A stretch of 64,000 bases of DNA, from NCBI GenBank assembly GCA_949299395.1, contig CASGAB010000001.1, positions 8,365 to 72,364 of the forward strand, written 5' to 3'. Position numbers and translations under genes: made by a program. Below are positions 5,319 to 48,762 of the stretch, in pieces. This DNA comes from an uncultured bacterium. GTDB taxonomy: Bacteria > Bacillota_I > Bacilli_A > RFN20 > CAG-826. Position 1 is the first letter of the stretch; the number at the start of each line of letters is the position of its first letter. The notes under the pieces were generated by a model. That model was not told the origin of the DNA. It saw only the letters and a list, made by a program, of their open reading frames with translations, and searched no databases.

Positions 5319-6785
5319 TTATTCTATAGAAATTCTTTCTTCACTTTCTTTATCAAAAACAAACATTTTATTTTCTTTAACTTTAAAGCGATAAGTAGCA
5401 ATAGAAAGAGCTAAATCACTATCTACAACAATCTTAATTTCTTCTCCTAAAAAAGAATCGTGTTCTAAAGTTAAAGTTGTATCTTTACCGTTTAATGTAA
5501 TTTCTTTAACTCTTAAAGAAATACCTAAATCTTCATCATTTTCGTTTAAAATAAAGCCTTCTGGTCTAATTCCAACATAAACTTCTTTATTGATATAATC
5601 ATTATTTTTTAAAGATGAAACTTTTTCATTATCAACATAAATTCCATCTTCTTTAATTAAACCTTTAAAAACATTAATTGGTGGAGTACCCAAAAATTTA
5701 GCAACAAAAAGATTATTTGGATTTTTATAAATATCAATTGGTTTACCACTTTGCATGACTTTACCTTGATTCATAACAACGATTTCATCACAAATTGACA
5801 TTGCTTCTTCTTGATCATGAGTAACAAAAACAGTGGTAATACCAGTTTCTTTTTGAATTCTTTTAATTTCTTCTCTAGTTTTTATTCTGAGTCTTGCATC
5901 TAAATTAGATAAAGGTTCATCTAAAAGTAAAACTCTTGGTTTTTTTACTAACGCTCTAGCAATAGCAACCCTTTGTTGTTGACCTCCACTTAATTCTTTA
6001 GGTTTTTTATCAAGTTGGTCTTCAATTTGAACAAGTCGAGCAACTTCTCTTACCATTAAATCAATTTCATCTTTACTTAATCTTCTTCTTTCTTTTATTC
6101 TTTCATTATTTCTATCAACTAAATAAAATTCTTCATCGATTTTAATATCTTTTCTAAGATATTTTTCTTTGATATTTTCAATTTCTTTTAAATTATCTTC
6201 TTTTATTTCTTTAACTCTATTATTTAACAAAGTATTATCTTCAATTAAAAATAACTTATAAGAATATAATCTTTTAGCAAAAGAAGGTGAAATAATATAT
6301 TTATCAATTAAAAATAAAATTGCTCTTTCTTTACTAATTTTATTTTTAATTGAACTAGAAATAATAACTTCATTTAATTCTTTAATGTTTTCTAATAATT
6401 TATTTTCTAAAACTAAACTTTCAATTTTATTTTCTTTTTTATATGCTTCTACTTTTAAATTAGTTAATGGAAAAGAAATGTTTTTATAAACATTCATATG
6501 AGGATATAAAGCATAGTTTTGGAAAACAAATCCAATACCTCTTTTTTCACTTGCTAAATTAGTAACTTCTTCATTATCAAACCAGATTTCACCATTTGAT
6601 GGTTCTTTTAATCCAGCAATCATATATAAAGTAGTTGATTTTCCACATCCAGAAGGACCTAAAATACCAACTAATTCATTATCTTTCATATCGATAGTTA
6701 CATTATCTACAGCGATAGTATCTTCAATACTTTTTTTAGGATCACCTTTAAATATTTTACTTAAATTTTTAATTAATATTTCCAT
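5319..6785 (-). CDS. ABC transporter ATP-binding protein (MalK/UgpC-like) with a ~150-aa insertion in the helical subdomain
   Basis: Walker A 'GPSGCGKST', Q-loop, signature 'LSGGQQQRVAIARAL', Walker B 'LLLDEPLSNLD' and a C-terminal TOBE-like region. About 150 lysine/glutamate-rich residues are inserted between the Q-loop and the signature motif. Confidence 0.85.
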   Translation of the reverse strand: MEILIKNLSKIFKGDPKKSIEDTIAVDNVTIDMKDNELVGILGPSGCGKSTTLYMIAGLKEPSNGEIWFDNEEVTNLASEKRGIGFVFQNYALYPHMNVYKNISFPLTNLKVEAYKKENKIESLVLENKLLENIKELNEVIISSSIKNKISKERAILFLIDKYIISPSFAKRLYSYKLFLIEDNTLLNNRVKEIKEDNLKEIENIKEKYLRKDIKIDEEFYLVDRNNERIKERRRLSKDEIDLMVREVARLVQIEDQLDKKPKELSGGQQQRVAIARALVKKPRVLLLDEPLSNLDARLRIKTREEIKRIQKETGITTVFVTHDQEEAMSICDEIVVMNQGKVMQSGKPIDIYKNPNNLFVAKFLGTPPINVFKGLIKEDGIYVDNEKVSSLKNNDYINKEVYVGIRPEGFILNENDEDLGISLRVKEITLNGKDTTLTLEHDSFLGEEIKIVVDSDLALSIATYRFKVKENKMFVFDKESEERISIE

Positions 6786-6832: not shown

Positions 6833-7183
6833 TTAAACTTCATTAGTTTCAATAGAATTAACTAAAACCTTTTTTAAAGTTACTAAATCACGAGTTATGT
6901 TTTTATAAACAATCATGTAATCAGTTTTAGTATAAGCGTGAACTAAACGGTTTCTAAAACCAATTATTTGTCCCCAAGGTATTTCTTTATGATTGTTACG
7001 ATATTCATCACTTAAAAATTTAACATTCTCAACCATTTAAATGAAATGAAGAAGAATTGCATCAATTATCATTCAGTCTTTAATAAATTCTTCATATTCT
7101 TTATTATCGAAATATTTAAAAATAGTCTCTATTTCTTGTAAAGCTCTTAAAATAAAGAATCTATCATCTTTAATATTATCCAT
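6833..7183 (-). pseudogene. hepT: HepT-like (HEPN/DUF86) toxin gene disrupted by two in-frame stop codons
   Basis: The full frame reads MDNIKDDRFFILRALQEIETIFKYFDNKEYEEFIKD-TGA-MIIDAILLHFI-TAA-MVENVKFLSDEYRNNHKEIPWGQIIGFRNRLVHAY..., which aligns with HepT along its whole length and carries the HEPN Rx4-6HxY motif 'RNRLVHAY'. The stops are TGA at 7073-7075 and TAA at 7037-7039 (minus strand). The track reports only the ORF 6833..7036 after the second stop. The ATG overlaps the mntA stop (ATGGATAA). Confidence 0.6.
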
Positions 7184-7673
7184 AAATTTTTATTCCATTT
7201 TTTAATATTTCATTTAGAATATCATAATCTTTTAAACAATCTTTAAAATCTAGTAAATCTACCCTTTTATGAAGTCCCACTCTAAAAGCTTCGATTAACC
7301 CGAAATATTCTAATCCATCCAGATTACCACTATAAGCTAAATCAACATCACTTCCTTCTTTTTGATAACCTTTCGCATAGCTTCCAAATAGATATACACA
7401 TTGAATTTTTCCTTTAAACTCTTTACTCTCACAAATTTTGGTAACGGTTTCTTTGATAAAATCCAAAGTTAATATTCCCTTTTCTTCATTAACTTCGTAT
7501 TTTTCCTTTAATAACTCTAAAAATTTAATTCTTTTTAGATTATTCCCATATTGTTCATCATTTTCATAACGAACATATGTTCTTAAAGGAATAGATAAAA
7601 AATCAGCTACTTCTTTTTGCGATAAATTAAGATTTTCTCTAGTTTTTTTAAGATTATTAAATTCAAATTCCAT
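7176..7673 (-). CDS. mntA: MntA-like minimal nucleotidyltransferase fused to an N-terminal XRE HTH domain; antitoxin partner of HepT
   Basis: N-terminus is an HTH_3 ('LSQKEVADFLSIPLRTYVRYEN'). C-terminus is a nucleotidyltransferase with 'VYLFGSYAKGYQKEGSDVDLAY' (GS...DxD). Its stop overlaps the hepT start. Confidence 0.65.
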   Translation of the reverse strand: MEFEFNNLKKTRENLNLSQKEVADFLSIPLRTYVRYENDEQYGNNLKRIKFLELLKEKYEVNEEKGILTLDFIKETVTKICESKEFKGKIQCVYLFGSYAKGYQKEGSDVDLAYSGNLDGLEYFGLIEAFRVGLHKRVDLLDFKDCLKDYDILNEILKNGIKIYG

Positions 7674-7704
7674 ATTTTTTACCTTATTTAGACATATTCA
7701 TACA

Positions 7705-7822
7705 TCCTTGACATGCCAAATTGACATATCTTCATCTATGTAATATGACAAAATGGCACATTTGGATGATATCTATATGCCAAAATGTCATATTTTGTAA
7801 CACTTGATGTGCCAAAATAAAG
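7705..7822. promoter_or_regulatory. Cluster of at least 4 related repeats (TGCCAAA(A/T)T / TGACAAAATGGCA / TGACAT) in the mntA-hepT leader, candidate operators
   Basis: Seen in sequence: TTGACATGCCAAATTGACATATC, ATGACAAAATGGCACAT, ATGCCAAAATGTCATAT and GATGTGCCAAAATAAAGG, all within about 120 bp upstream of mntA. Confidence 0.35.
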
Positions 7823-7835
7823 GTATCTAAATGAA

Positions 7836-7868
7836 AAATTAAAAAGCCTCCTTATATACAAGAAGGCT
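7836..7868 (-). terminator. Intrinsic terminator for the 5'-nucleotidase gene
   Basis: On the minus strand, a 9-bp stem AGCCUUCUU/AAGGAGGCU (one G-U pair) with loop GUAUAU is followed by UUUUUAAUUUUU. It lies about 30 nt after the stop of the 7897..9336 gene. Confidence 0.45.
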
Positions 7869-7896: not shown

Positions 7897-9336
7897 TTAA
7901 ATATTTATAAATCCTTCAGTTTTTAATGTTTCTGCTACAATATTTCTAGCTAAAACATTAGTTGTAATAACTTCTTCTGCTAAACTTGAAGAACCTGGTT
8001 TATATGCAACATAATCAATTGTTGCTAGATAAAATTTATTATTATGAGTAACAGGAGGATTTGCTCTAACTACGTTTTCTTGACCATTTAAAAACATTGA
8101 ATATAAAGAAGGATCAAATTTCATTAAACATAACATATTTTCAAATGGATATACTTTTAAAAGATCTCCATAAGTAAAATCTCCTGCTACAATGTTACTT
8201 CTTATTCCTCCACTATTAACACTTCCGCTATCACAAGGAATAGCAATATCCTCATTATTAGTAGCATATTTCATTAAAGAATAAGAAATAAATCGAGCAA
8301 ATTCACCTTTTGAAACATTTGTTTCAAAAGTATATAAAACTTCATCTCTAACACTTTCAATATCTTCTCTATAAGTTTCATATAGTTCATCTATTTTAGA
8401 TGAACTATCTTTAAATATAGTATCTTTATTATTAAAAGTATTAATATTTTTTGCTTCACTAGAAATTACTTCATATCTATTAGTTTTTTCATTTAATTTT
8501 AAATCTAAAGAAATATGAGAAAGATATTCTCCTAAAGTAGAACCTTCTACATATGGTACTTTATTATTCTTTTCATCTAAATATCCTTCTTTTAAATCAT
8601 GATCATGACCTAAAAATAAAGCATCAATATAATTGACTAATTCTAAATAATAAGAATAATTTCCATCGTGAGATGATAAAACTACTACATCACAGTTTTC
8701 TTTATTTTTTAATCTTTCTGCTTCTTTTTTAATTAATTCTATACTTGAATCAAATATAAAATCATCCGCAATAGTTGCTAAAATATCGTCTCCAATATTA
8801 GGCATAATTGAACCAATTATGCCTACTTTAATACCTTCTTTTTTAACTATAGTAGATGGAGTTAAAAAAGAAGGTATTTTATTATCACTAGCATTAAAAA
8901 TATTAATACCTAAAAGTGGAAAATCCATTTTTTCTTTCATTTTCTCAAGTTTTTCTATTCCCCAATCAAATTCATGATTACCAATAGTCATTGAATCAAA
9001 ACCTATTAGGTTCATTGATTCAATGACTATTTCTCCATAAGTAAGATTAGATTCTGCTCCACCTTGAAACATATCTCCACTAGAAAGAATAAAAGTATTA
9101 TCAAAGTCTTTTTCTTTTTGATTTATTAAATAGTTTCCTATTTTAGATAATCCAACTTGTTCATAACTTTCATCATAAAGGTATGCTCCATGGAAATCAT
9201 TTAAAGCATAAAAATTTAAAGTTCTTTCATCTACCTTAACTCCTAAATCTTCGTTATTTTGGTTATTACAGGAAGCAATAGTTAATAATGAAAGTAAAAA
9301 GACAGTTGTATTTAATATTATTTTTTTAAGTTTCAT
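7897..9336 (-). CDS. Surface lipoprotein, bifunctional metallophosphatase/5'-nucleotidase family (UshA-like)
   Basis: Lipobox 'TIASCNN'. Metallophosphoesterase motifs 'NDFHG', 'SSGDMFQGG', 'GNHEFD', 'GHDHD'. The length fits a phosphatase domain plus a 5'-nucleotidase C-terminal domain. Confidence 0.7.
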   Translation of the reverse strand: MKLKKIILNTTVFLLSLLTIASCNNQNNEDLGVKVDERTLNFYALNDFHGAYLYDESYEQVGLSKIGNYLINQKEKDFDNTFILSSGDMFQGGAESNLTYGEIVIESMNLIGFDSMTIGNHEFDWGIEKLEKMKEKMDFPLLGINIFNASDNKIPSFLTPSTIVKKEGIKVGIIGSIMPNIGDDILATIADDFIFDSSIELIKKEAERLKNKENCDVVVLSSHDGNYSYYLELVNYIDALFLGHDHDLKEGYLDEKNNKVPYVEGSTLGEYLSHISLDLKLNEKTNRYEVISSEAKNINTFNNKDTIFKDSSSKIDELYETYREDIESVRDEVLYTFETNVSKGEFARFISYSLMKYATNNEDIAIPCDSGSVNSGGIRSNIVAGDFTYGDLLKVYPFENMLCLMKFDPSLYSMFLNGQENVVRANPPVTHNNKFYLATIDYVAYKPGSSSLAEEVITTNVLARNIVAETLKTEGFINI

Positions 9337-9390
9337 ATTTTTAATTTATCCCATTATTATGCATATTTTATCGTAGTTAGCCTTTATAGT

Positions 9391-9422
9391 CAAAAAAGAG
9401 TATGGCTCTTCACCATACTCTC
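9391..9422 (-). terminator. Intrinsic terminator after the Big_2/OB lipoprotein gene
   Basis: Stem AGAGTATGG/CCATACTCT with a 7-nt loop. On the minus strand it is followed by a TTTTTTG run. It lies 33 nt downstream of the 9455 stop. Confidence 0.5.
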
Positions 9423-9454
9423 CTTTGTTTGTTTGTTACTATCTATTAGATAGA

Positions 9455-11641
9455 TTAAGCTTTTCTAACGTTATCAATAACTAATTGGACTGTTCCGTTA
9501 TAGTCACTTCTAACACATTCGAAGGTAATCTTATCACCTGGCTTAAGATCTTTAGTAACTTCGTTTGTTAAGAAGTCTTTTGGATTTCCCATTGAATATT
9601 TCCAACTATCATTATAGTTGAATGAAATAGCAGTTGAAGCTGTTGCACCGTAAGCAAAGACTTCTCCATCAATAGATTCATCTTTTAAGTAAAGATTACC
9701 ATATTGATCAGGTTCTTCACCTTTAAATCTTGAAATTTCAGCAGTAACTTCATAGACATATTGTGAAGTCATACCATCAACAGGTCCTTTGATAACATCA
9801 GCTAATGTAGCTTTTGTAGCTGTTGATCTTTCATCGTTAAGTGAAGTTAAAACACCTTGAATTTCTTTTGTTTCTTTATAGTCAGCTCTAATAGCAACCA
9901 TTGTGACAATATCACCAACTTTAATACCTTTAGTTAATGGGTTATCTAATGCATTTTTAGGATTTTCAAATACATATTCTCCTGTAGCTGCATCAAATGT
10001 TAAAGCATCGTATTCAGCAGTAATACCGTAAACTAAAATTTCTTTTGATGGATCGTTTTCATCTTCAAGAATGAGATTACCATATTTAGTAACATCAGAA
10101 TCATCACCATATTGACCTAAAGCTTTAACTTTACCTCTAACAACATAAGCTTGTGTTGTGTTATTTTGAGCTTCTAAGATTTCTGAAACGCTTGCTTTAA
10201 CATAAGCTGGCTCACCTTGTCTTTCACTACAGTCTAATGTGACAACACCGATTGCACCGCTTTCTGTAGTAACACTGATTGTAACAGCACCTTCAGAAAT
10301 ACCTGTAACGACACCATTTTGATCGACAGTAGCAACTGATGTATCTGATGAACTCCATGTGAATACTGGATTTTCTTCGCCTTCAACTGTAGCTTTTAAT
10401 GGTAATGTAGAACCAACAAATAAATTACCTGTATATGTAATAGTTGCAGCTTTTGCTTCAACGTATGGTTCGTTAACGACTTCACAGCCTTCTGTAGAAA
10501 CAAACATTAATGCACTTTCACCACTAACAGCTATCATATCAGTATTTCCTGTTCCTGGATCAAGATTGTATGTTTTTCTTTGTGATTGCATACCAGTGAA
10601 GTTAATTGTTTTTTCGCCGTTTGAATCTAAAGCTTCTTTAAACATATCATAAAGGTCTAATTTGCCTTGTTGATCGTGGTTATATCTATCAGCGTAAACA
10701 TAGACTTCAGAACCTTTATATAAAACTTTTGCCTCTAAGAAGTCATCTTCTGTAACTTTTCCGTTATAGCTATTATCGTAAAGATTAACTTCTAAGACTT
10801 TAGCACCACTAATTGTTGATAATGAAGCGTATGTAGCTGGAGACATAAAGCCTGGGTGATTTAATTCAGAAACAGTAGGTTTTTCTACACCTTCAACATC
10901 TTTTCCACTTAAAATTGTGATAACAGCTTTACTACCAGTAATTTGTCTTGTGCTGTTGTATGGTGATGACTCACCAGAAACTTCAATACAATCACCAACT
11001 TTTAATCCGTTTGGAACGTTTTTCTTTGGAATATCATAAATCATAAAGCCGTAATTTCCAGCTTGAACAAGAATTCCATACCAGTTATCTGGGTCTGTAT
11101 CTGGGATAAATGATGTAACATAGCCTTGAACAGCACAAGTAACACCTTTGCCTGGCATATCTTTAATAGGAACGATATTTTTATTACTATTAATATCAAC
11201 ATTAAATTTTAATGATGCAGTAGCATTATTCAATTTTGCTGTACCTGTGATAGTTGTTGATTTAACTGTACCAAATTCACCCCAAACTGGGTTTAATTGT
11301 AAATATGATGAACCATTTGCTTCAACAGTTTCACTTGTGAATAATGTTGAATCAAAATCCCAATCAACAACAACATCAAATGTATTGCCGCTATCTGTTA
11401 AATAGCTGTAATTTGTTTGAGCAATAATGTAGTGAGCTGCCTTTTGTTCAATATTATTTTTAAGACCATATGATTCATCTCTAATAGGAGCTTTGACACT
11501 ATTTGTTAAAACTGCAGCAGAAGAGATAACAGCTTTACAGATTTCTTCATCAGTCATTGTTTCGTTAGTAGCTGGAGCACAAGCACTAACAAGTGCTGTA
11601 GCACTTAATGCAAAAGCGATTAATAATTTAGTTTTTTTCAT
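9455..11641 (-). CDS. Surface lipoprotein with a Big_2 Ig-like domain and three repeated OB-fold-like modules, a putative nucleic-acid-binding accessory protein
   Basis: Lipobox 'LVSACAP'. Big_2-like 'TWSSSDTSVATVDQNGVVTGISEGAVTISVTTESG'. Three repeats of the pattern '...V.G.V....YGN(L/Y).L.DE.....(I/V).VYG'. The same OB-like module occurs at the C-terminus of the adjacent nuclease. Confidence 0.5.
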   Translation of the reverse strand: MKKTKLLIAFALSATALVSACAPATNETMTDEEICKAVISSAAVLTNSVKAPIRDESYGLKNNIEQKAAHYIIAQTNYSYLTDSGNTFDVVVDWDFDSTLFTSETVEANGSSYLQLNPVWGEFGTVKSTTITGTAKLNNATASLKFNVDINSNKNIVPIKDMPGKGVTCAVQGYVTSFIPDTDPDNWYGILVQAGNYGFMIYDIPKKNVPNGLKVGDCIEVSGESSPYNSTRQITGSKAVITILSGKDVEGVEKPTVSELNHPGFMSPATYASLSTISGAKVLEVNLYDNSYNGKVTEDDFLEAKVLYKGSEVYVYADRYNHDQQGKLDLYDMFKEALDSNGEKTINFTGMQSQRKTYNLDPGTGNTDMIAVSGESALMFVSTEGCEVVNEPYVEAKAATITYTGNLFVGSTLPLKATVEGEENPVFTWSSSDTSVATVDQNGVVTGISEGAVTISVTTESGAIGVVTLDCSERQGEPAYVKASVSEILEAQNNTTQAYVVRGKVKALGQYGDDSDVTKYGNLILEDENDPSKEILVYGITAEYDALTFDAATGEYVFENPKNALDNPLTKGIKVGDIVTMVAIRADYKETKEIQGVLTSLNDERSTATKATLADVIKGPVDGMTSQYVYEVTAEISRFKGEEPDQYGNLYLKDESIDGEVFAYGATASTAISFNYNDSWKYSMGNPKDFLTNEVTKDLKPGDKITFECVRSDYNGTVQLVIDNVRKA

Positions 11642-11660
11642 ATTATTTTTAATTTCCTCC

Positions 11661-13070
11661 CTAATTAATATGTTCGCTTACATAGTTTTTATATTCGGTT
11701 GCTTTGAACGAAGGGAATTCAACTTGATATTCACCGTCTGCGTCTTCATTATATTGGAAGACTCCAAGCATAACCTTAACGTCGTAACTCTTACCTCTTT
11801 CAAAAACAGATGCAATTGTACTCAAACTGCTAAAGAAAGTGTGAGATTCAAAACGTATATTTAATTTAATATTGTTACAAGTTGCATGAACAGTGAAAAC
11901 ATTATTTACAACATCTTTTTCTGACTGATAAATATAGTCTTCACTATCTTCAATATCAATGGTTGTAGATATGAAGTTTCCAGCATATGGATCATAGGAA
12001 GATGTTGAAGTAATAGTTTTTGGATCCATATAAACTGGATCAACATTATAGGTATAACCTAAAGCTTCAGCTTCTTCTTTTGATGAGGCTAAAATTTCAA
12101 AAGGATAATGGTCATCACGAATACGAACGTCAGTTAATTGGAAATTACCATAATATTTTGTGATTTTTGCATAGAATCTAACGATATCACCAACTTTTGC
12201 GCCTGTATTTTTATATAAAGTAAATACAAAAATTGAAGCAGGAACAATGTCTTCATCGCTAGGATTTACGTCTCTAATATATAAATCACTTCCGCTAACA
12301 CCAATAACTTGTCCGGTAATTCTTAATTGTTTACCACTACTTCCTGTTGAATCATTAACTCCTAAAGTGTCGAAATTTGCTTTCGCATTAGAAATTGTTG
12401 TTTCAACTACTTCTCCACTTGAATCAAAATCACAATCTTTTTCACCATTAACTCTTCTACCTTCAGCTGCTTTTTGAGCTTCTTGGAAAGCTTCAAAATA
12501 ACCATCTAAAATGGAAGAATTTTGATTTAAATAGTTACGTGAATAGCCTTGTTCAACGATTTCTAAATTTAATAATCTAAAATCATCGCCTTCTTCAGGT
12601 TGATACCAAACAAAGCCCATATATCTTCCACCACTAGAATCATATTTTTCAAACATATCTAAATCGTTTAAAACAACGATTCTATTTGCGGTAGTAAGTT
12701 TTGATTTTGTAAAGTGAGAAGCTTTGATACCCCGTTCTTGGATAGCTCCTGTTGATTCAGGAGTATCAATAGCTTCATATCTAAATCTAAATCTTCTAGC
12801 GGTATTATCATCACTTGCAGGATAGAAATTTGATGTGTCTCCATCTGTATTTGAAGCGAGTTTAACTTCCATGATTGCTAAGCCGCTAGTAACATTTAAG
12901 AAATTATCGCTTGGAATACTAGCTTCATTAGCAAACTTAAAAGCATCTGTAACGGGAGTTGCATATTCTTCTGTTGACCCACAAACATCTTGTTTTTCTC
13001 CACACGAAGAAACTGCAAGGGTTGTAAATAAACCTAATACTAAGTATCTAAATAATTTCTTAAATTTCAT
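11661..13070 (-). CDS. Secreted/surface lipoprotein nuclease of the staphylococcal-nuclease (thermonuclease) family with a C-terminal OB-fold-like module
   Basis: Lipobox 'AVSSCGE'. SNase core 'GDTSNFYPASDDNTARRFRFRYEAIDTPES...KASHFTKSKL' (compare 'GDT...R(L)IGIDTPE'). C-terminal 'LRITGQVIGVSGSDLYIRDV...YYGNFQLTD'. Confidence 0.7.
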   Translation of the reverse strand: MKFKKLFRYLVLGLFTTLAVSSCGEKQDVCGSTEEYATPVTDAFKFANEASIPSDNFLNVTSGLAIMEVKLASNTDGDTSNFYPASDDNTARRFRFRYEAIDTPESTGAIQERGIKASHFTKSKLTTANRIVVLNDLDMFEKYDSSGGRYMGFVWYQPEEGDDFRLLNLEIVEQGYSRNYLNQNSSILDGYFEAFQEAQKAAEGRRVNGEKDCDFDSSGEVVETTISNAKANFDTLGVNDSTGSSGKQLRITGQVIGVSGSDLYIRDVNPSDEDIVPASIFVFTLYKNTGAKVGDIVRFYAKITKYYGNFQLTDVRIRDDHYPFEILASSKEEAEALGYTYNVDPVYMDPKTITSTSSYDPYAGNFISTTIDIEDSEDYIYQSEKDVVNNVFTVHATCNNIKLNIRFESHTFFSSLSTIASVFERGKSYDVKVMLGVFQYNEDADGEYQVEFPSFKATEYKNYVSEHIN

Positions 13071-16996: not shown

Positions 16997-18781
16997 TTAG
17001 AAAATTCTTTCTCCAGTTTCTTCAAATACGTAAATTCTCTTAGCTGAGAAATTAAGATATTCATTTCCTTCACATTCTTTTGCGAGTTCAGAAGAAATAA
17101 TAATTTTAACGTGTCCTTCTTCTACTCCAACGACATCTCCAACAACGGAAATATCTCTACCAATATGTTCAATATTGAAGACTTTAACTTGGATAGGACC
17201 GTTTGGATCTAAAGCAAAATGTTCTGCTCTAATACCAACTTTAACAGTTCTTGTTGGGTTTAATCTTGATTCTAATGAAGCAATAATTCTTTGAACTCTA
17301 TCTTTTGCTTCATCTGTTTGAACACCATTTGAATTTCTTAAGATTTCAATTTGGTGATCTTTAATAGCTTTTGTTCCTTCCCAATCACTTGAAGCATATA
17401 ATTCTTCAATTTGATGAGCATAAGGAATAACTTCAAGAGAAACTTTAGCTTTTTTAGCAAGTTTTTTAACAGTTTTGAATCCAGCTGGTGATGATGCGTT
17501 TTCAACAGCGTCTAATTCATGTAAAACTGCTTCAACTAATGCTTTTTCTTCATCATTATGAGTTTCTACTCTATTAACAAGCATTTTTCCTCTTGCAATA
17601 GCTACTTTATCTTTAACTTCGATAACTTTCTTATTTAATTCTTCTTCACTTGCGTTAAGTAAGACACTAACTTCATTATTAAAGACATCAATAACAGATT
17701 GATCATCATATTTAGTTAAATAGCTCTTAGCATCTTTTAAAGCTTTTCTAACTTCTTTTCTATCTGTAGTAGGTAATACAACATTTGTATAGCAATCAAA
17801 TGTTGGTAAAGATTCTAATAATTCTTTTTCTTTAGCTTTTTGTTCTTTTTTAGAAATAAAATCGTTTGTACCAGAAATAATGTTTGTACCACAAGCATTA
17901 CAATATTTACCATTATGTGAAACAACATTACCACAGTTTGGACAAATAACTTCTTCAATGTGAACTCTATTTAGTGCTTCATCATAGAAAACTTCTTTTT
18001 CAGCAACAAATAATTTACCGTTTTCAACTCTTCCATCAAAAACGTTAATTGCAGGAGTTCCTAAGAACTTAGCAACAAAGAGGTTTGCTGGTTCTTCATA
18101 AACTTTTTGAGGTTCATCTTTTTGTTGAACAATACCATCTTTCATAACAACAATAAAGTCAGAAATTGACATAGCTTCTTCTTGGTCGTGTGTAACAAAG
18201 ATAGTTGTAATTCCTGTTTCTTTTTGAATTCTTTTAATTTCTTCTCTAGTTTGAAGTCTTAATCTAGCATCTAAGTTAGATAAAGGTTCATCTAAAAGAA
18301 GAACTCTAGGTCTTTTTGCTAAAGCTCTAGCGATAGCAACACGTTGTTGTTGACCACCAGAAAGTTCTTTTGGTTTTCTATCTAATAATTTTTCAATATT
18401 AACAATTTTTGCGTTTTCTAAAGCGATTGCGCATTTTTCATCAAATGTGAGCTTTGGAACAACGTTATCTAAAGGGAACATAATGTTTTGTCTAACGTTG
18501 AAATGAGGATAAAGTGCATAGTTTTGGAAAACTAATCCGATTCCACGATTTTCTGGTGGAACATTTGTAACATCTTCGTTTCCAAAGAAGACTTTTCCTT
18601 CAGTGACGGTATGAATACCGGCAATCATATAAAGGGTTGTAGATTTACCACAACCAGAAGGACCTAAAAGACCACAAAGTTTTCCATCTGGGATGTCAAA
18701 AGTCATATTATTAACAGCGACTGTCTTAGCACCTTTCTTTCCTTCAAAAGTTTTAACGAGGTTTTGAATCTTTACTTCCAT
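16997..18781 (-). CDS. ABC transporter ATP-binding protein (MalK/UgpC-like) with a ~270-aa insertion, including a CxxC...CxxC zinc ribbon, inside the C-terminal regulatory domain
   Basis: Walker A 'GPSGCGKST', signature 'LSGGQQQRVAIARAL', Walker B 'LLLDEPLSNLD'. The regulatory domain is interrupted by 'CPNCGNVVSHNGKYCNACG' plus about 250 residues before it resumes 'VKVGIRAEHFAL...'. Confidence 0.85.
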   Translation of the reverse strand: MEVKIQNLVKTFEGKKGAKTVAVNNMTFDIPDGKLCGLLGPSGCGKSTTLYMIAGIHTVTEGKVFFGNEDVTNVPPENRGIGLVFQNYALYPHFNVRQNIMFPLDNVVPKLTFDEKCAIALENAKIVNIEKLLDRKPKELSGGQQQRVAIARALAKRPRVLLLDEPLSNLDARLRLQTREEIKRIQKETGITTIFVTHDQEEAMSISDFIVVMKDGIVQQKDEPQKVYEEPANLFVAKFLGTPAINVFDGRVENGKLFVAEKEVFYDEALNRVHIEEVICPNCGNVVSHNGKYCNACGTNIISGTNDFISKKEQKAKEKELLESLPTFDCYTNVVLPTTDRKEVRKALKDAKSYLTKYDDQSVIDVFNNEVSVLLNASEEELNKKVIEVKDKVAIARGKMLVNRVETHNDEEKALVEAVLHELDAVENASSPAGFKTVKKLAKKAKVSLEVIPYAHQIEELYASSDWEGTKAIKDHQIEILRNSNGVQTDEAKDRVQRIIASLESRLNPTRTVKVGIRAEHFALDPNGPIQVKVFNIEHIGRDISVVGDVVGVEEGHVKIIISSELAKECEGNEYLNFSAKRIYVFEETGERIF

Positions 18782-18917
18782 ACTAAGTTTCCTTTTAATT
18801 TATGAACTATATTTTAGCATTTTAAATCACCAAAAAAAACGATAAAAAAGCATTGTTTTAGATAAGGGAAAAATTAAAAAAAACGCTCGACTCTTTTTTT
18901 ATAAAAAAGGTACGTTT

Positions 18918-29378: not shown

Positions 29379-30065
29379 TTAATATTCTCTCTTTTTAAAG
29401 ATATAAAGTGATAAAAAATAACAAAGTAAATATAATCCTACACCACAAATTAAAAATCCAATTAGTGAGAATAGCCAAATTTGGGACATCATCATAGGAT
29501 CAACAAGAGGAACAGCTATAAATAAAAGAGGTAATGCTGAAGTAAAAATAGAAATAATACTTCCTATAACTACACCCTTATTTGATCCAACAACTATACA
29601 AATCAATAATGAAGTTGAACCAGAAATTAGGCAACTTGAAAAGAAAGTAAGGATTAATCCAACATAAATATTTAAATCAAAGTCCGCATCAACAATAAAT
29701 AAGGATATAAAAAACGGAATACAAAGAATTAATACCATAAAGAAATGTAAAATAACTTTTGATAATAAAATCTTTGGTTTTTTAACTCCAACCGAAAGAA
29801 TAAATGGAGTCCAATGAGCTTTCTCATCAAAACCAAATGAAGAAACAAGCATATTTCCTGGATAAAATCCGGAAATAAATATAACAGGAAGAAGAGTTAA
29901 AATGCCGGTTTTTTGAATTTCTTCAATTGTCGGAATTTCATCTTCTCCAAAAGAACCCTTAATATCGGTTCCTAAACCAATAAAGGCAATAAAAATAACG
30001 ATAAGAATGTAAAAAATAAATACCATTCTTATGTTATAAAACTCTTTTAAAAGGAGTCCTTTCAT
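29379..30065 (-). CDS. ABC-2 type transporter permease
   Basis: Six hydrophobic helices. It overlaps the upstream ABC ATPase gene by 4 nt. Confidence 0.5.
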   Translation of the reverse strand: MKGLLLKEFYNIRMVFIFYILIVIFIAFIGLGTDIKGSFGEDEIPTIEEIQKTGILTLLPVIFISGFYPGNMLVSSFGFDEKAHWTPFILSVGVKKPKILLSKVILHFFMVLILCIPFFISLFIVDADFDLNIYVGLILTFFSSCLISGSTSLLICIVVGSNKGVVIGSIISIFTSALPLLFIAVPLVDPMMMSQIWLFSLIGFLICGVGLYLLCYFLSLYIFKKREY

Positions 30066-44054: not shown

Positions 44055-44648
44055 ATGCCAAGAACCGCTGAAGCAAATCAATTTTTAAAAGAAAAAAGAA
44101 AAAAACAAATTCTTCTTTCCGCTTTAAAATTATTTTGCCTTGAAGGTTATGAAAATATCACGATGGATCGAATTGCCAAAGAATCTAAAATTTCTCATGG
44201 CTTAATCTATCATTACTTTGATAAAAAGAGTGATATCTTACAGGAACTTATTGCTGAAAGTAAAAGAAAATTCTCTCTTATTTTTGATTTAAGCAATATG
44301 AAAACCTTAAAAGGTGCAGACTTTTTTAAAGCATTAACAGATTTTATTATTTCCGCTGTAACTTTAGGTGAAGAATATGCCTTTTTTATCGCATTATATT
44401 TAAACTTTAAGATTTCTCCAGATATGTATGAACAATTTGGTCAAACTTCTTATCTTAAAAATCTTGAAAATAATTTTAAGATTGCTCAAGAAGACGGAAC
44501 ATATCAAAAAGGAAATCCAAAAGAATTCTTACTTTGTTATTTTTACTTATTAAAATCAATAACCATGTCTGCAATTATTTCTAAAAACACATCAACCATT
44601 CCAAGTGCTGATGTTGTCTTAAATTTATTTAAAAGGAGCGTTATCTAA
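44055..44648 (+). CDS. TetR/AcrR-family transcriptional regulator
   Basis: N-terminal HTH 'ITMDRIAKESKISHGLIYHYFDKK'. Confidence 0.75.
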   Translation: MPRTAEANQFLKEKRKKQILLSALKLFCLEGYENITMDRIAKESKISHGLIYHYFDKKSDILQELIAESKRKFSLIFDLSNMKTLKGADFFKALTDFIISAVTLGEEYAFFIALYLNFKISPDMYEQFGQTSYLKNLENNFKIAQEDGTYQKGNPKEFLLCYFYLLKSITMSAIISKNTSTIPSADVVLNLFKRSVI

Positions 44649-46819
44649 TGATCAAACTATTCAAAATTGCTGGAAAACGCCGGTATTTTATCCTTTTAGC
44701 TGTTGTAACTATTATTTTTCAATGTTGGTTTCAACTTAATCTCCCTGAATATATGGGAAATATTCAAACCATCCTTACTTGTAAAGAATTTGCACCAGCT
44801 TCACCAATTGAATTAATAAATCCTTTAAGTAAAGAAGTTATTACTATCTCAACTATGTTAACTCAGGATGAATTAACTTCTCTTATCTTAAATCAAGGTG
44901 GTTGGATGATACTTTGTTGCGTTATTATCCTTTCTTTAGCTGTTTGCCAATTCTTTGGTGCATCAAGTGTTGGTGCTTTTGTTGGTAAAGAATTAAGAAA
45001 AGAAATGTATGCAAAAGTTAATACATTATCTTTATCTGATTACAATAAATTTGGAACAGCTACTCTTATTACAAGAACTACCAACGATATCGAACAATTA
45101 AAAAACTATGTCATTATGTTTATCAGAATGATAGTTATGTCCCCAACTTATATGATTATTGGTTTAATTAAAACCTTAACATTGGAAAATCCAGGACCTC
45201 AACTTGCATCTGTTTCAGCAGTTACTATTCCTTTAATTTTAGGCATAATGATCATTATTTTCGTTTATGCAATGCCATTATTTAAACAAATGCAAACAAG
45301 AATTGATAACGTTACTGTTGTCTTAAGAGAAAACTTAACTGGCATTAGAGTTATTAGAGCTTACAATCAACAAAATACTGAGGCTCAAAAATTTGACACC
45401 GTTAATACAGATTTAAAGAAAACTTTAGTTAAAGCAGGAAGAATTATGTCTGTTGCTAATCCAACAATTCAAATTGTCTTTAACTTTGCATTTATTGCAA
45501 TTTATGCTGTTGGTTTCTTCCTTTTAACGGAACTTTCAGCTCAAAGTTTTAATGACTTAGTCTTATTAGCAAGTCAACAAGTTTCAATTATTGCTGTTGT
45601 TGCTCAATATTCAATGCAAATAATGAACTCTTTCTTAATGTTTGCAATGATTATTGCAATGATTCCTCAAGCAGCTGCTTCTTATAAGCGTGTTCTTGAA
45701 GTTTTAAATGTTGAAACATCAATTAACGACAAAGAAGCAAGAGAATATGCAGTTCAACAATATGAAGCTCATTTAAGTAGACTTGAATATAGATTTAAAG
45801 AAAATTATAAAACTACACATGATGGTCATGAATTCTCTTACTCATTATTAAAAGAAAGATATTCAAAAATGAATGAAGAAGAAAAAAATAACGACCCTCA
45901 ATATAAAGATTTCTTAGACTATGTTGCTATTAGAAAAGATAGAGAACATATCTTAAATTCGTTAACTGATGAATCGACTGAAGAATATATAAATATTATT
46001 AATAAAAGTATGCATCATTTAGATCAACATGGTGTTATTGAATTTAGAAACGTAACATTCACCTATCCAGACGCAAATACTCCAACAGTCATGAATATTT
46101 CATTTAAAACTAAACCCGGAACAACCACTGCAATTATTGGTTCAACAGGTAGTGGGAAATCCACATTAATCAACTTAATTCCTCGATTCTATGATGCAAC
46201 AAACGGCGAAGTTTTATTTGATGGAATAGATGTTAAAAAGTTCCCACAAAAGGTATTAAGAGATCATATTGGTTTTGTTCCTCAAAGTGCTGTTTTATTT
46301 ACCGGTTCTATTAAAGATAACATTCGTTATGGTAAAGAGGACGCTACTGAAGAAGAAATTAATGAAGCGTTAAGTGTTGCTCAAGCAGCAAACTTTGTTT
46401 CAAAACTTCCGGATAAACTCGATACTTTTGTTTCTCAAGGTGGTAAAAATTTCTCTGGCGGACAAAAACAAAGATTATCAATTGCTAGATGTTTAGTTAG
46501 AAAACCTGAAATTTATGTTTTCGACGATTCATTCTCAGCATTAGACTTTAAAACAGATGCCCAACTTAGAGCTGCATTAAAAAATTACACAAAAGATGCT
46601 TCAGTAATTGTTGTTGCTCAAAGAGTCTCTTCGATTATTGATGCTGATAATATTATCGTTTTAAATGAAGGCAAATGTGTTGGACAAGGAACACATGCTG
46701 AATTATTAAAAAACTGCCCAATTTATCAAGATATTGTTAAATCTCAACTTGATCCTGAAGAAGTTGAAAAAACTATTCGTCTTGTTCAAGAAGCTAGTTT
46801 GGAAGGAGGTATCAACTAA
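44648..46819 (+). CDS. ABC multidrug-type exporter, fused permease-ATPase subunit 1 of a heterodimer (LmrCD/BmrCD-like), with an extended linker insertion
   Basis: Six TM helices, then Walker A 'GSTGSGKSTL', signature 'FSGGQKQRLSIAR' and Walker B 'IYVFDDSFSALD'. About 110 extra residues lie between the TM domain and the nucleotide-binding domain. The start overlaps the tetR stop. Confidence 0.8.
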   Translation: MIKLFKIAGKRRYFILLAVVTIIFQCWFQLNLPEYMGNIQTILTCKEFAPASPIELINPLSKEVITISTMLTQDELTSLILNQGGWMILCCVIILSLAVCQFFGASSVGAFVGKELRKEMYAKVNTLSLSDYNKFGTATLITRTTNDIEQLKNYVIMFIRMIVMSPTYMIIGLIKTLTLENPGPQLASVSAVTIPLILGIMIIIFVYAMPLFKQMQTRIDNVTVVLRENLTGIRVIRAYNQQNTEAQKFDTVNTDLKKTLVKAGRIMSVANPTIQIVFNFAFIAIYAVGFFLLTELSAQSFNDLVLLASQQVSIIAVVAQYSMQIMNSFLMFAMIIAMIPQAAASYKRVLEVLNVETSINDKEAREYAVQQYEAHLSRLEYRFKENYKTTHDGHEFSYSLLKERYSKMNEEEKNNDPQYKDFLDYVAIRKDREHILNSLTDESTEEYINIINKSMHHLDQHGVIEFRNVTFTYPDANTPTVMNISFKTKPGTTTAIIGSTGSGKSTLINLIPRFYDATNGEVLFDGIDVKKFPQKVLRDHIGFVPQSAVLFTGSIKDNIRYGKEDATEEEINEALSVAQAANFVSKLPDKLDTFVSQGGKNFSGGQKQRLSIARCLVRKPEIYVFDDSFSALDFKTDAQLRAALKNYTKDASVIVVAQRVSSIIDADNIIVLNEGKCVGQGTHAELLKNCPIYQDIVKSQLDPEEVEKTIRLVQEASLEGGIN

Positions 46820-48652: not shown

Positions 48653-48687
48653 AACCGCGTTAAAATATGACGCGGTTTTTTATTTTA
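48653..48687 (+). terminator. Intrinsic terminator after the ABC exporter operon
   Basis: AACCGCGT-taaaatatg-ACGCGGTT followed by TTTTTTATTTT. Confidence 0.65.
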
Positions 48688-48762
48688 AGAATAATTAATT
48701 ATTCTTGTCTCTTTTTTCATCAAGTCTCATTCATTATAATTATTTTTAGTTATAGATTTTTT

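What the first reader, a model, noticed from the sequence alone, without database searches (positions are those of the whole stretch)
6833..7673. MntA/HepT toxin-antitoxin pair in which the HepT toxin frame is intact in register but killed by two in-frame nonsense codons
The minus-strand frame starting at 7183 (ATG overlapping the mntA stop as ATGGATAA) aligns end-to-end with HepT/DUF86. It includes the HEPN 'RNRLVHAY' (Rx4-6HxY) motif. It contains TGA at 7073-7075 and TAA at 7037-7039 with no frameshift, each replacing a single residue. The MntA partner (HTH-XRE fused to a GSx9-DxD nucleotidyltransferase) is intact. This could be a recently inactivated toxin, with the antitoxin/regulator retained. 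It could also be a naturally suppressed or readthrough toxin, or a truncated C-terminal HEPN fragment (MVENV..., 67 aa, retaining the RNase motif) still expressed from the internal ATG.
Basis: seen in the sequence. Interest (0 to 1): 0.6.

Follow-up and report, generated by a model that had tools for sequence, protein, structure and literature searches.

The report
Dead HepT toxin beside intact MntA
This is a two-gene toxin-antitoxin module in which the RNase toxin gene (hepT) has been killed by two nonsense mutations while its antitoxin/regulator gene (mntA) stays intact; this kind of decay is known, and it recurs in about a third of related gut bacteria.

Summary
On the minus strand an intact mntA (7673..7176, XRE-type HTH fused to a GSX10DXD nucleotidyltransferase) overlaps by 8 nt a 116-codon HepT/DUF86 frame (7183..6833). 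That frame keeps RX4HXY and aligns without gaps to intact homologues. It is broken by TGA (7073-7075, codon 37) and TAA (7037-7039, codon 49).

The stops are real nonsense codons:
- The window's real genes contain 112 TGG and no in-frame TGA.
- TAA is the main terminator (41 of 52).
- Codon 49 is Gln in 47 of 49 intact homologues, so CAA->TAA.

A syntenic orthologue (L089) has Gln at both positions but carries its own stop elsewhere. Between the two, hepT evolves faster than any of 59 intact-intact pairs (dN ratio to mntA 2.25 against a median of 0.98), while mntA has omega 0.11.

Among 80 species-level homologous loci, hepT is intact in 49, visibly broken in 13 and absent in 16. mntA nearly always remains whole.

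An array of four 13-bp dyad motifs at 32-bp spacing upstream of mntA is conserved across the family and is probably the HTH operator.

Verdict: an ordinary, fairly recent toxin pseudogene with a retained antitoxin. Interest is low.

The parts
7176..7673 (-). mntA: intact 165-aa antitoxin/regulator. It has an N-terminal XRE-type HTH (about residues 7-42) fused to a minimal nucleotidyltransferase (about residues 76-164) with G97-S98-X10-D109-x-D111.
   Evidence: The ORF is listed. Pfam gives HTH_3 at 27.6 bits (cut-off 23), Polbeta at E=5.5e-13 and NTP_transf_2 at 30.1 bits. It keeps all 33 invariant columns of a 30-sequence family alignment. The NTase domain matches solved Shewanella MntA 5yep_A at E=3.4e-6. 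NCBIfam MntA_antitoxin scores 49.1 bits. Omega is 0.11 against the orthologue L089.
6833..7183 (-). hepT pseudogene: a 116-codon HepT/DUF86 (HEPN RNase) frame plus its TAA terminator. It is in register throughout, retains R77-N-R-L-V-H82-A-Y84 (RX4HXY), and is interrupted by two nonsense codons.
   Evidence: Translation is. PF01934 matches at E=1.8e-20 over profile 2-117/120. Alignment to intact partners is gapless. A family profile hits solved HepT 5yep_B/6m6u_B at E about 1e-8. Relaxed constraint is shown.
7073..7075 (-). In-frame TGA, codon 37 of hepT. It corresponds to the first residue of HEPN helix 2.
   Evidence: The column is E(24)/D(9)/G(5) in 49 intact homologues and Q in the orthologue L089. 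No other in-frame TGA occurs in any real gene of the window. Helix mapping comes from the AF2 model of the closest intact homologue.
7037..7039 (-). In-frame TAA, codon 49 of hepT, in the middle of HEPN helix 2. It is most simply a CAA(Gln)->TAA C-to-T transition.
   Evidence: The column is Gln in 47 of 49 intact homologues and in the orthologue L089. CAA is the dominant Gln codon here (457 against 16 CAG). TAA is the main terminator (41/52).
7073..7183 (-). Residual 36-aa N-terminal ORF of hepT (helix 1 only), translationally coupled to mntA through the ATGGATAA overlap.
   Evidence: The ORF is listed and called as a 36-aa gene in public assemblies. It has no family hit on its own.
6833..7036 (-). 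Residual 67-aa C-terminal ORF (MVENV...). It contains the end of helix 2, helix 3 with RX4H, and helix 4. Its ATG directly follows the TAA (TAAATG).
   Evidence: The ORF is listed. PF01934 matches at E=3.3e-14. There is no SD upstream. The Met is ancestral, since homologues have Q-M/Q-L at this point. The fragment lacks H1 and most of H2.
7714..7726 (.). Operator-like unit O4, nearest to mntA: the dyad-symmetric 13-mer TGCCAAATTGACA (TGNCA-N3-TGNCA).
   Evidence: Found. It is conserved in the orthologue L089 while the flanking spacers diverge. The same motif lies within 200 nt upstream of mntA in 28 of 75 homologous loci: 42 hits in 15 kb against 2 in 409 kb elsewhere.
7746..7758 (.). Operator-like unit O3 (TGACAAAATGGCA), 32 bp from O4.
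7778..7790 (.). Operator-like unit O2 (TGCCAAAATGTCA), 32 bp from O3.
7807..7818 (.). Degenerate fourth unit O1 (ATGTGCCAAAAT; only one half-site is clear), 32 bp from O2.
   Evidence: It is family D2. The TGGCA half-site is conserved in L089.
7682..7685 (-). Weak Shine-Dalgarno (AAGG), 8 nt upstream of the mntA ATG.
   Evidence: L089 has AAGGAG at the same place.
7845..7868 (-). Terminator-like hairpin of the upstream 5'-nucleotidase lipoprotein gene. It marks the 5' boundary of the mntA-hepT transcription unit.
   Evidence: It is perfectly conserved in L089.

Best explanation
The locus is a chromosomal type VII (HepT/MntA, HEPN/MNT class I) toxin-antitoxin module of a subfamily common in gut and rumen Bacilli. 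In this subfamily the MntA adenylyltransferase carries an N-terminal XRE-type HTH.

In intact members the likely mechanism is as follows; these steps are inferred from the characterised Shewanella and Aphanizomenon systems.
- mntA and hepT are co-transcribed and translationally coupled through the ATGnnTAA overlap.
- HepT dimers cleave RNA through RX4H.
- MntA neutralises HepT by oligo-AMPylating the Tyr of RX4HXY.
- The HTH probably represses the operon by binding an array of 13-bp dyad operators (TGNCA-N3-TGNCA) spaced about 32 bp apart upstream of mntA.

In this genome hepT is a genuine pseudogene. A CAA->TAA change at codon 49 and a TGA at codon 37 truncate the protein inside or before helix 2 of the four-helix HEPN bundle, so no full-length toxin can be made under the organism's standard code.

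The inactivation is recent. The frame has no indels, keeps the catalytic residues, and needs only about 0.05-0.1 neutral substitutions per site to explain the stops. It is nevertheless old enough for a measurable excess of nonsynonymous change.

mntA remains intact and under purifying selection. It probably persists as an autoregulated orphan antitoxin/regulator. What that orphan does (pure autoregulation, cross-neutralisation of other HepT toxins, or other AMPylation targets) is not shown.
For: What the sequence shows directly:
- The gene pair, the overlap, the motifs and the two stops.
- Standard code. There are 112 TGG and no in-frame TGA in about 21,000 codons of long ORFs. Stop usage is TAA 41, TAG 10, TGA 1. 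Every TGA in a long table-4 frame lies upstream of a start codon or at a true gene end.

Comparative evidence:
- Intact HepT partners of 109-127 aa follow MntA homologues with the same overlap and align gaplessly to the window frame.
- Codon 49 is Gln in 47/49.
- The syntenic orthologue L089 (71.6% nt identity, same 5'-nucleotidase neighbour) has Gln at both positions, but has its own TGA at a different codon and W70R.
- Window against L089: mntA dN/dS 0.11, hepT 0.32, dN(hepT)/dN(mntA) 2.25. In 59 intact-intact pairs of similar divergence that ratio has median 0.98 and maximum 1.85, and hepT omega has median 0.15 and maximum 0.30.
- Of 80 species-level loci, 49 have intact hepT, 13 have it disrupted at various positions, 16 have no significant hepT and 2 are not assessable. 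In the disrupted and absent loci, mntA is full length in 25/29 and keeps GSX10DXD in 27/29.

Structure:
- The AF2 model of the closest intact homologue (pLDDT 83.8) gives H1 6-24, H2 36-54, H3 69-81 and H4 88-108. Its best PDB fold matches are HEPN toxins of HEPN-MNT systems.

Operator:
-.

Literature:
- RX4HXY/GSX10DXD and AMPylation (PMC7641770).
- HEPN dimerisation is needed for activity (PMC13000451).
- Toxin pseudogenes and orphan antitoxins are known (PMC7354431).
Against: - No read-level data were inspected. The three identical assemblies may share a sample.
- Against distant homologues the window's hepT is not significantly more diverged than its MntA predicts. The relaxed-constraint signal therefore rests on a single orthologue pair with saturated dS (1.1-1.5).
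- In that orthologue (L089) mntA itself has TAA at codon 2. Retention of mntA by selection is thus not universal in the clade, or that contig carries an error.
- Both stops are followed immediately by in-frame ATGs, so termination-reinitiation could still yield the 67-aa fragment.
- No biochemical activity, DNA binding or expression was tested.
- The promoter could not be located by the sigma-70 scan.
Confidence: 0.85

Rival explanations
1. The 67-aa C-terminal fragment (and perhaps the 36-aa and 11-aa pieces) is still made by termination-reinitiation at the TGA-ATG and TAA-ATG junctions. It would have a function, for example as an AMPylation substrate or decoy for MntA, a co-repressor, or a weak RNase.
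For: Both stops are directly followed by in-frame ATG. The native hepT start also lacks an SD and relies on coupling, so ribosomes do reach this region. The fragment keeps W70, R77, N78, H82 and Y84 and still scores as PF01934.
Against: The fragment lacks helix 1 and about two thirds of helix 2 of the four-helix HEPN core, and HEPN activity needs a folded dimer (PMC13000451). The Met after the TAA is ancestral (Q-M/Q-L in homologues), so the TAAATG junction is a by-product of CAA->TAA rather than a design. In other species hepT is broken at unrelated positions or removed entirely, and no recurrent split architecture is seen. The orthologue L089 is broken elsewhere and has lost the invariant Trp. 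hepT shows an elevated dN.
Confidence: 0.07
2. The stops are decoded (natural suppression, readthrough or an altered genetic code), so a full-length HepT is made.
For: TGA is very rare as a terminator here (1 of 52 long ORFs). The organism looks Mollicute-related, with Mycoplasma-type YidC models as best hits, and Mollicutes include lineages that read TGA as Trp. The orthologue's lesion is also a TGA.
Against: There are 112 TGG and no in-frame TGA in about 21,000 codons of real genes, the opposite of a TGA=Trp genome. One gene ends in TGA in a typical ATGA overlap. The second stop is TAA, the organism's main terminator (41/52). No tRNA gene lies in the window. The family column at codon 37 is E/D/G, not W.
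Confidence: 0.03
3. The two stops are sequencing or assembly artefacts, and the real gene is intact.
For: The window comes from a metagenome-type assembly. The three matching records (NCBI, ENA, Logan) may derive from the same reads.
Against: Two different assemblers give 100% identical sequence over 10.5 kb and 2 kb, and the Logan contig was seen in 2 samples. The errors would have to be two separate substitutions, with no indels, confined to one gene within a 64-kb window whose other genes are uninterrupted. The orthologous locus in a related organism is independently broken, and 13 further species show broken hepT. Elevated dN is consistent with true loss of function.
Confidence: 0.03
4. 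The whole module is a decaying relic. mntA is intact only because it has not yet been hit, not because selection retains it.
For: In the orthologue L089 mntA has TAA at codon 2, and its called product is a 121-aa HTH-less protein. TA modules are often lost entirely.
Against: mntA dN/dS is 0.11 between the window and L089, at or below the family median of 0.14. The window's MntA keeps all 33 invariant family columns. The operator array is conserved between the window and L089 while the spacers diverge. In 29 species with broken or absent hepT, mntA is full length in 25 and keeps GSX10DXD in 27.
Confidence: 0.1

Closest known systems
[quoted passage not shown]
   Same: The gene order is mntA then hepT, with overlapping start and stop. 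The domains are PF01934 HEPN with RX4HXY and PF01909/PF18765 MNT with GSX10DXD. The NTase domain matches 5yep_A (E=3e-6), and a family HepT profile matches 5yep_B (E=1e-8). The predicted fold of the closest intact homologue matches these solved toxins (PMC7641770).
   Different: The toxin here is a pseudogene with two nonsense codons. MntA carries an extra N-terminal XRE-type HTH, and the operon has a conserved upstream array of four dyad operators. HepT is shorter (about 110-116 aa against 133-157). Both proteins score below NCBIfam's equivalog cut-offs (49.1 and 39.5 against 60 bits), so this is a divergent subfamily.
Degraded TA loci with orphan antitoxins (e.g. the parE pseudogene beside parD in Caulobacter, frameshifted yacB in Shigella, orphan antitoxins of Klebsiella; reviewed in PMC7354431)
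   Same: The toxin is inactivated by point lesions while the adjacent antitoxin stays intact. This is the expected order of decay, because losing the antitoxin first would be lethal. The same pattern recurs across the family here.
   Different: Those examples are type II systems with protein-binding antitoxins. Here the antitoxin is an enzyme (an AMPylase) fused to a DNA-binding domain, so the orphan could plausibly keep catalytic or regulatory roles.
Xre-MNT module of Streptococcus suis (PMC8406773)
   Same: It combines an XRE-family HTH regulator that binds its own promoter with an MNT-domain protein.
   Different: In S. suis the two are separate genes, the MNT protein is reported as the toxin and no HEPN partner is involved. 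Here the HTH and MNT are one polypeptide, paired ancestrally with a HepT toxin.
Fused MNT-HEPN proteins (FhepTA, Shewanella mobile elements; PMC13000451)
   Same: The domain families are the same, and HEPN is controlled by oligoAMPylation and dimerisation.
   Different: There the fusion joins MNT to HEPN. Here the fusion joins HTH to MNT, and HEPN is a separate gene that is now dead.

Membership tests
Type VII HepT/MntA (class I HEPN/MNT) TA system | Toxin with a HEPN domain of the DUF86/HepT-like family (PF01934) | tested here: met
   PF01934 scores E=1.8e-20 and 73.3 bits (cut-off 23.5) over profile 2-117/120 with the stops masked. The family profile hits solved HepT 5yep_B.
Type VII HepT/MntA (class I HEPN/MNT) TA system | RX4HXY motif in the toxin (RNase site plus the AMPylated Tyr) | tested here: met
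   R77-N-R-L-V-H82-A-Y84 is read directly. R, H and Y are invariant in 49 intact homologues. The motif definition comes from PMC7641770.
Type VII HepT/MntA (class I HEPN/MNT) TA system | Adjacent upstream MNT gene (PF01909) with GSX10DXD | tested here: met
   NTP_transf_2 scores 30.1 bits (cut-off 21) and Polbeta scores E=5.5e-13. G97-S98-X10-D109-V-D111 is read from the translation. The two genes overlap by 8 nt.
Type VII HepT/MntA (class I HEPN/MNT) TA system | Uninterrupted, translatable toxin ORF | tested here: not met
   TGA at codon 37 and TAA at codon 49. The code is standard. The locus is therefore a decayed member, not a working system.
Type VII HepT/MntA (class I HEPN/MNT) TA system | NCBIfam equivalog thresholds for MntA_antitoxin (NF047752) and HepT_toxin (NF047751) | tested here: not met
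   The scores are 49.1 and 39.5 bits against cut-offs of 60. These are the best-hit families but fall below equivalog level, so this is a divergent subfamily.
Type VII HepT/MntA (class I HEPN/MNT) TA system | HepT toxicity (RNA cleavage) and neutralisation by MntA-catalysed oligoAMPylation of the Tyr | not testable with these tools
   This needs expression of a repaired ORF with and without MntA, plus mass spectrometry. It is inferred from PMC7641770 only.
HEPN fold (four-helix bundle with Rx4-6H at the end of helix 3) | Four core helices with the RX4H motif on helix 3 | tested here: met
   The test was done on the closest intact homologue, not on the pseudogene product. The AF2 model has pLDDT 83.8 with helices 6-24, 36-54, 69-81 (R76..H81) and 88-108. 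The top Foldseek PDB hits are 7ae6, 7bxo, 7ae9 and 7ae8 at probability 0.96-1.0. The helix-3 location agrees with PMC3710099.
XRE-family HTH autoregulator | HTH_3 domain above the Pfam threshold | tested here: met
   PF01381 scores 27.6 bits against a cut-off of 23, over residues 8-40.
XRE-family HTH autoregulator | Cognate operator in its own promoter region | tested here: inconclusive
   Three exact TGMCAAAWTGNCA dyads plus one degenerate unit sit at 32-bp spacing. The motif is about 460-fold enriched upstream of mntA homologues and is footprinted against L089. Binding was not tested, and no sigma-70 promoter was located.
Genetic code 4 (TGA = Trp, Mycoplasma/Spiroplasma) | In-frame TGA at Trp positions of conserved genes, with TGA not used as a terminator | tested here: not met
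   There is no in-frame TGA against 112 TGG in long ORFs. All TGAs in table-4 frames lie 5' of start codons or at a gene end.

The most novel reading that the evidence does not exclude
The HTH-MntA adenylyltransferase is kept by selection after its cognate toxin is lost because it has a job of its own. One version is immunity or 'anti-addiction': AMPylating HepT toxins that arrive on mobile elements or are encoded elsewhere in the genome. Another is a role as a transcription factor and AMPylase with other targets. In about a third of gut-Bacilli lineages this type VII antitoxin would then have been domesticated into a stand-alone enzyme-regulator. A weaker variant is that the 67-aa HEPN remnant is still made by termination-reinitiation and serves as MntA's substrate or co-repressor.
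Probability: 0.15. Interest if true: 0.45.

Novelty: new member of a known kind. Interest (0 to 1): 0.2.

Why it matters
On its own the locus matters little. It is a textbook example of how TA modules die, toxin first and antitoxin later, and annotators should mark 6833-7183 as a hepT pseudogene rather than as two small 'HepT-like' ORFs.

The comparative by-products are modestly useful:
- They define an uncharacterised, abundant HTH-fused MntA subfamily in gut and rumen Bacilli (more than 1,300 database proteins).
- They give a testable operator (TGNCA-N3-TGNCA in about 32-bp phased arrays).
- They show that about 36% of species-level loci keep an intact, catalytically competent mntA without a working hepT. 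This is a quantitative data point for the debate on whether orphan antitoxins are relics or anti-addiction/immunity genes.

Tried and rejected
- Table 4 (TGA=Trp) was considered because of the 27.8% GC content and the Mollicute-like genes. It was rejected on codon counts.
- The word-index homologue search with the X-masked HepT frame returned only the window's own 67-aa product.
- The first genome-contig scan, with the single MntA sequence, found nothing. The second, with an alignment, worked. The window's own species is not in that collection, so the organism could not be named beyond 'Mollicute-like, low-GC Bacilli'.
- Source names were absent for the window's proteins.
- phmmer of the single HepT frame against the PDB found nothing. 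A family profile was needed.
- Tests of excess divergence against distant homologues were not significant. Only the close orthologue L089 gave a signal.
- There was no tRNA and no Rfam family in the window.
- No second HepT-like sequence was found in the window.
- There was no plasmid homologue. The single 'phage' hit is an unverified, bacterial-looking contig with an intact pair, so the anti-addiction idea has no support from a mobile-element reservoir.
- PADLOC gave only weak candidate-system hits for the NTase domain and nothing for HepT.
- The sigma-70 scan found no promoter in the mntA upstream region.
- A recurrent or programmed stop position was looked for across 80 loci and not found.
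Full report
**1. What is in the sequence**

On the minus strand, a 165-aa ORF (7673..7176) is followed by a frame that starts at ATG 7183 and overlaps the first ORF's stop by 8 nt (ATGGATAA). This frame runs 116 codons to TAA at 6835-6833.

The second frame reads MDNIKDDRFFILRALQEIETIFKYFDNKEYEEFIKD*MIIDAILLHFI*MVENVKFLSDEYRNNHKEIPWGQIIGFRNRLVHAYTKTDYMIVYKNITRDLVTLKKVLVNSIETNEV. The stops are TGA at 7073-7075 (codon 37) and TAA at 7037-7039 (codon 49).

With the stops masked, the frame matches Pfam HepT-like PF01934 at E=1.8e-20 over profile positions 2-117 of 120.

The upstream protein has HTH_3 (27.6 bits, above its cut-off), Polbeta (E=5.5e-13) and NTP_transf_2.

The frame has 2 internal stops, against 7-25 in the other five frames and 11.7 expected from its base composition (Poisson P(<=2)=7e-4). 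'Intact in register' is therefore real and not chance.

An ENA metagenome contig and a Logan assembly of ERR10610673 are 100% identical to the window over 10.5 kb and 2 kb, stops included. Both have the locus called as 36-aa and 67-aa genes.

**2. The stops are true nonsense codons**

The window is 27.8% GC and looks Mollicute-related: the best YidC hits are Mycoplasma-type models, and it also carries mfd and ftsH. I therefore tested whether TGA is read as Trp.
- Long ORFs contain 112 TGG and no in-frame TGA.
- Stop usage in ORFs of at least 120 aa is TAA 41, TAG 10, TGA 1.
- Every TGA inside a long table-4 frame lies upstream of the real start codon. The one exception is a genuine gene end in an ATGA overlap at 30062.

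The code is standard, and the hepT TGA is the only TGA inside a conserved coding frame in 64 kb. TAA is the organism's main terminator.

**3. Comparison with relatives**

MntA belongs to a large family of about 159-aa HTH-NTase proteins at roughly 50% identity, with 1,377 hits. The window's MntA keeps all 33 invariant columns of a 30-sequence alignment.

Neighbourhoods of several homologues show an intact HepT of 109-119 aa with the same overlap. These align to the window frame without a single gap.
- In 49 intact HepT partners the column of codon 49 is Gln in 47. CAA->TAA, one C-to-T transition, explains that stop, and CAA is the usual Gln codon here (457 against 16 CAG).
- The column of codon 37 is variable: E 24, D 9, G 5.
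- W70, G75, R77, N78, H82 and Y84 are retained.

**4. A true orthologue**

L089 (Logan SRR12763692) is syntenic, with a 5'-nucleotidase gene followed by mntA and hepT. It is 71.6% identical in DNA to window 9300-6901.
- Its hepT has Gln at both of the window's stop positions.
- It carries its own TGA at the equivalent of window codon 14 and has Arg in place of the invariant Trp.

Nei-Gojobori estimates between the two loci:

| Gene | dN | dS | omega |
|---|---|---|---|
| mntA | 0.162 | 1.45 | 0.11 |
| hepT | 0.365 | 1.14 | 0.32 |

As a baseline I used 59 pairs of loci in which both hepT genes are intact and MntA identity is 62-85%.
- dN(hepT)/dN(mntA) has median 0.98 and maximum 1.85. The window-L089 pair, at 2.25, exceeds all 59.
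- hepT omega has median 0.15 and maximum 0.30.

hepT has therefore evolved under relaxed constraint in this clade while mntA has not.

The lesions differ between the two loci, the alignment is still almost gapless, and omega is far below 1. I infer independent and fairly recent inactivations rather than one ancient event. If functional omega is 0.15 and neutral omega is 1, roughly a fifth of the combined branch was neutral. dS is saturated, so this is rough.

Against distant homologues, the window's hepT is not significantly more diverged than its MntA predicts. That agrees with a recent event.

Of all possible single-nucleotide changes in the repaired frame, 56 of 1,044 create a stop. About 0.05-0.1 neutral substitutions per site are enough to give one or two stops.

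**5. The pattern is common**

A scan of one genome per species returned 80 loci, mostly gut and rumen Erysipelotrichaceae, 'Bacilli' and 'Mollicutes' MAGs, plus Anaeroplasma bactoclasticum and some Clostridia. Downstream of mntA:

| hepT state | Loci | Detail |
|---|---|---|
| Intact | 49 | |
| Clearly disrupted | 13 | nonsense in L019, L023, L031, L034; frameshifts in L061, L076, L081, L082; deletion remnants in L015, L054, L063, L066, L070 |
| No significant hepT | 16 | 10 have no profile hit at all and unrelated genes follow |
| Not assessable | 2 | |

The lesions sit at different positions, so there is no sign of a programmed recoding site or a recurrent split architecture.

In the 29 loci with broken or absent hepT, mntA is full length in 25 and keeps GSX10DXD in 27. 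Toxin-first decay with a surviving antitoxin is a documented pattern (PMC7354431).

**6. Where the stops fall in the fold**

A family profile matches solved Shewanella HepT (5yep_B/6m6u_B, E about 1e-8) over both halves. The MntA NTase domain matches 5yep_A.

An AlphaFold2 model of the closest intact homologue (pLDDT 83.8) has H1 at 6-24, H2 at 36-54, H3 at 69-81 (carrying R..H) and H4 at 88-108. Its best PDB fold matches are the HEPN toxins 7AE6, 7BXO, 7AE9 and 7AE8.

Window numbering is +1 relative to this model. The TGA therefore sits at the first residue of helix 2 and the TAA in the middle of helix 2.

The 67-aa ORF would contain only the tail of H2 plus H3 and H4.
- It has no Shine-Dalgarno sequence, whereas 25 of 47 genes here have one.
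- Both stops are followed at once by in-frame ATGs (TGA-ATG, TAA-ATG), so termination-reinitiation could in principle make it.
- The Met after codon 49 is ancestral (Q-M or Q-L in homologues), so this junction is a by-product of the mutation.
- HEPN RNases act as folded dimers (PMC13000451).

I rate a functional fragment as unlikely but not excluded.

**7. How the module most likely works**

By homology with the characterised systems (PMC7641770), the intact ancestor was a type VII TA pair.
- HepT cleaves RNA through RX4H.
- MntA neutralises it by adding AMPs to the Tyr of RX4HXY using GSX10DXD.

These steps are inferred, not shown here.

What is particular to this subfamily is the XRE-type HTH fused to MntA. 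Upstream of mntA there are three exact 13-mers (TGCCAAATTGACA, TGACAAAATGGCA, TGCCAAAATGTCA; dyad TGNCA-N3-TGNCA) plus one degenerate unit, at exactly 32-bp spacing (7714, 7746, 7778 and about 7807).
- The same motif occurs within 200 nt upstream of mntA in 28 of 75 homologous loci. That is 42 hits in 15 kb against 2 in 409 kb elsewhere, about 460-fold, with 31-33-bp spacing. It also occurs upstream of orphan mntA genes.
- In the window-L089 alignment the four units are conserved while the spacers between them have diverged.

I infer that this is the operator array for HTH-mediated autorepression. Binding was not tested, and the sigma-70 scan found no promoter there.

**8. Comparison with what is known, and novelty**

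The locus meets the sequence-level definition of class I HEPN/MNT: PF01934 with RX4HXY, next to PF01909 with GSX10DXD. It fails the requirement for a translatable toxin. It also scores below NCBIfam's equivalog cut-offs (49.1 and 39.5 against 60 bits).

It is therefore a decayed member of a divergent, HTH-fused subfamily of a known kind. I found no paper describing this HTH-MntA architecture or its operator. The nearest relatives in concept are the separate Xre plus MNT genes of S. suis and the MNT-HEPN fusions of Shewanella.

No plasmid homologue was found, and only one unverified 'phage' contig carries the pair. The idea that the orphan MntA protects against incoming HepT toxins has no direct support.

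**9. Verdict**

The readthrough alternative is not supported. The fragment alternative is unlikely.

The finding is ordinary: interest 0.2, a new member of a known kind.

The most useful by-products are the family-wide frequency of hepT loss with mntA retention, and the conserved operator array.

Noticed in passing
window 7700-7830 (units at 7714-7726, 7746-7758, 7778-7790, about 7807-7818); also L003-L089 upstream of mntA: An array of 13-bp dyad motifs (TGNCA-N3-TGNCA) phased at 32 bp lies upstream of mntA. The motif is about 460-fold enriched upstream of mntA homologues in dozens of species, and it is conserved against the orthologue L089 while the spacers diverge. It is probably the operator of the HTH-MntA subfamily, and I found no description of it in the papers I searched.
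   Followed up: yes
L009-L088 (80 species-level loci): In this HTH-MntA/HepT subfamily, hepT is intact in 49 loci, visibly broken in 13 and absent in 16. mntA nearly always stays full length with GSX10DXD, so orphan enzyme-antitoxins are common in gut and rumen Bacilli.
   Followed up: yes
L089:1646-1651 (orthologue of window 7673-7668): In the syntenic orthologue, mntA begins ATG TAA (the window has ATG GAA) behind a good AAGGAG Shine-Dalgarno sequence. The rest of the HTH is almost identical to the window's. This could be a very recent knockout, a sequencing error in a single-run Logan contig, or a start-stop arrangement.
   Followed up: partly
whole window (e.g. gene end at 30062-30064): TGA is almost unused: it terminates 1 of 52 long ORFs (in an ATGA overlap) and never occurs in frame, while TGG (112) encodes all Trp. 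Such avoidance in a 27.8% GC, Mollicute-like genome might reflect weak RF2 usage, a possible step towards TGA reassignment. Both hepT pseudogenes (the window and L089) contain a TGA.
   Followed up: partly
window 5319-6785 (-) and 16997-18799 (-): Two MalK/UgpC-type ABC ATPases are unusually long (488 and 600 aa). The 488-aa protein shows a lysine/glutamate-rich insertion inside the nucleotide-binding domain. The two are about 79-86% identical in DNA over short stretches, so they are paralogous transporter operons.
   Followed up: no
window 7897-11677 (-) and beyond (L001 genes): The cluster upstream of the TA module encodes a lipoprotein 5'-nucleotidase (lipobox LLTIASC), a 728-740-aa Big_2 surface protein with no NCBIfam hit, and a staphylococcal-nuclease-domain protein. 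This looks like a nucleic-acid scavenging surface cluster typical of wall-less or reduced Bacilli.
   Followed up: no
window 48664-52098 (+): A 1,144-aa ORF with no NCBIfam match at E<=1e-10 sits next to two MsbA-like ABC exporter genes (44633-48642).
   Followed up: no
L090 (MT836394.1 6486-10654): A GenBank record labelled 'UNVERIFIED: Bacteriophage sp.' from human faeces carries an intact HTH-MntA/HepT pair (157 + 110 aa) next to a 657-aa sugar-kinase/nucleotidyltransferase-like gene. The stretch looks bacterial rather than phage.
   Followed up: partly
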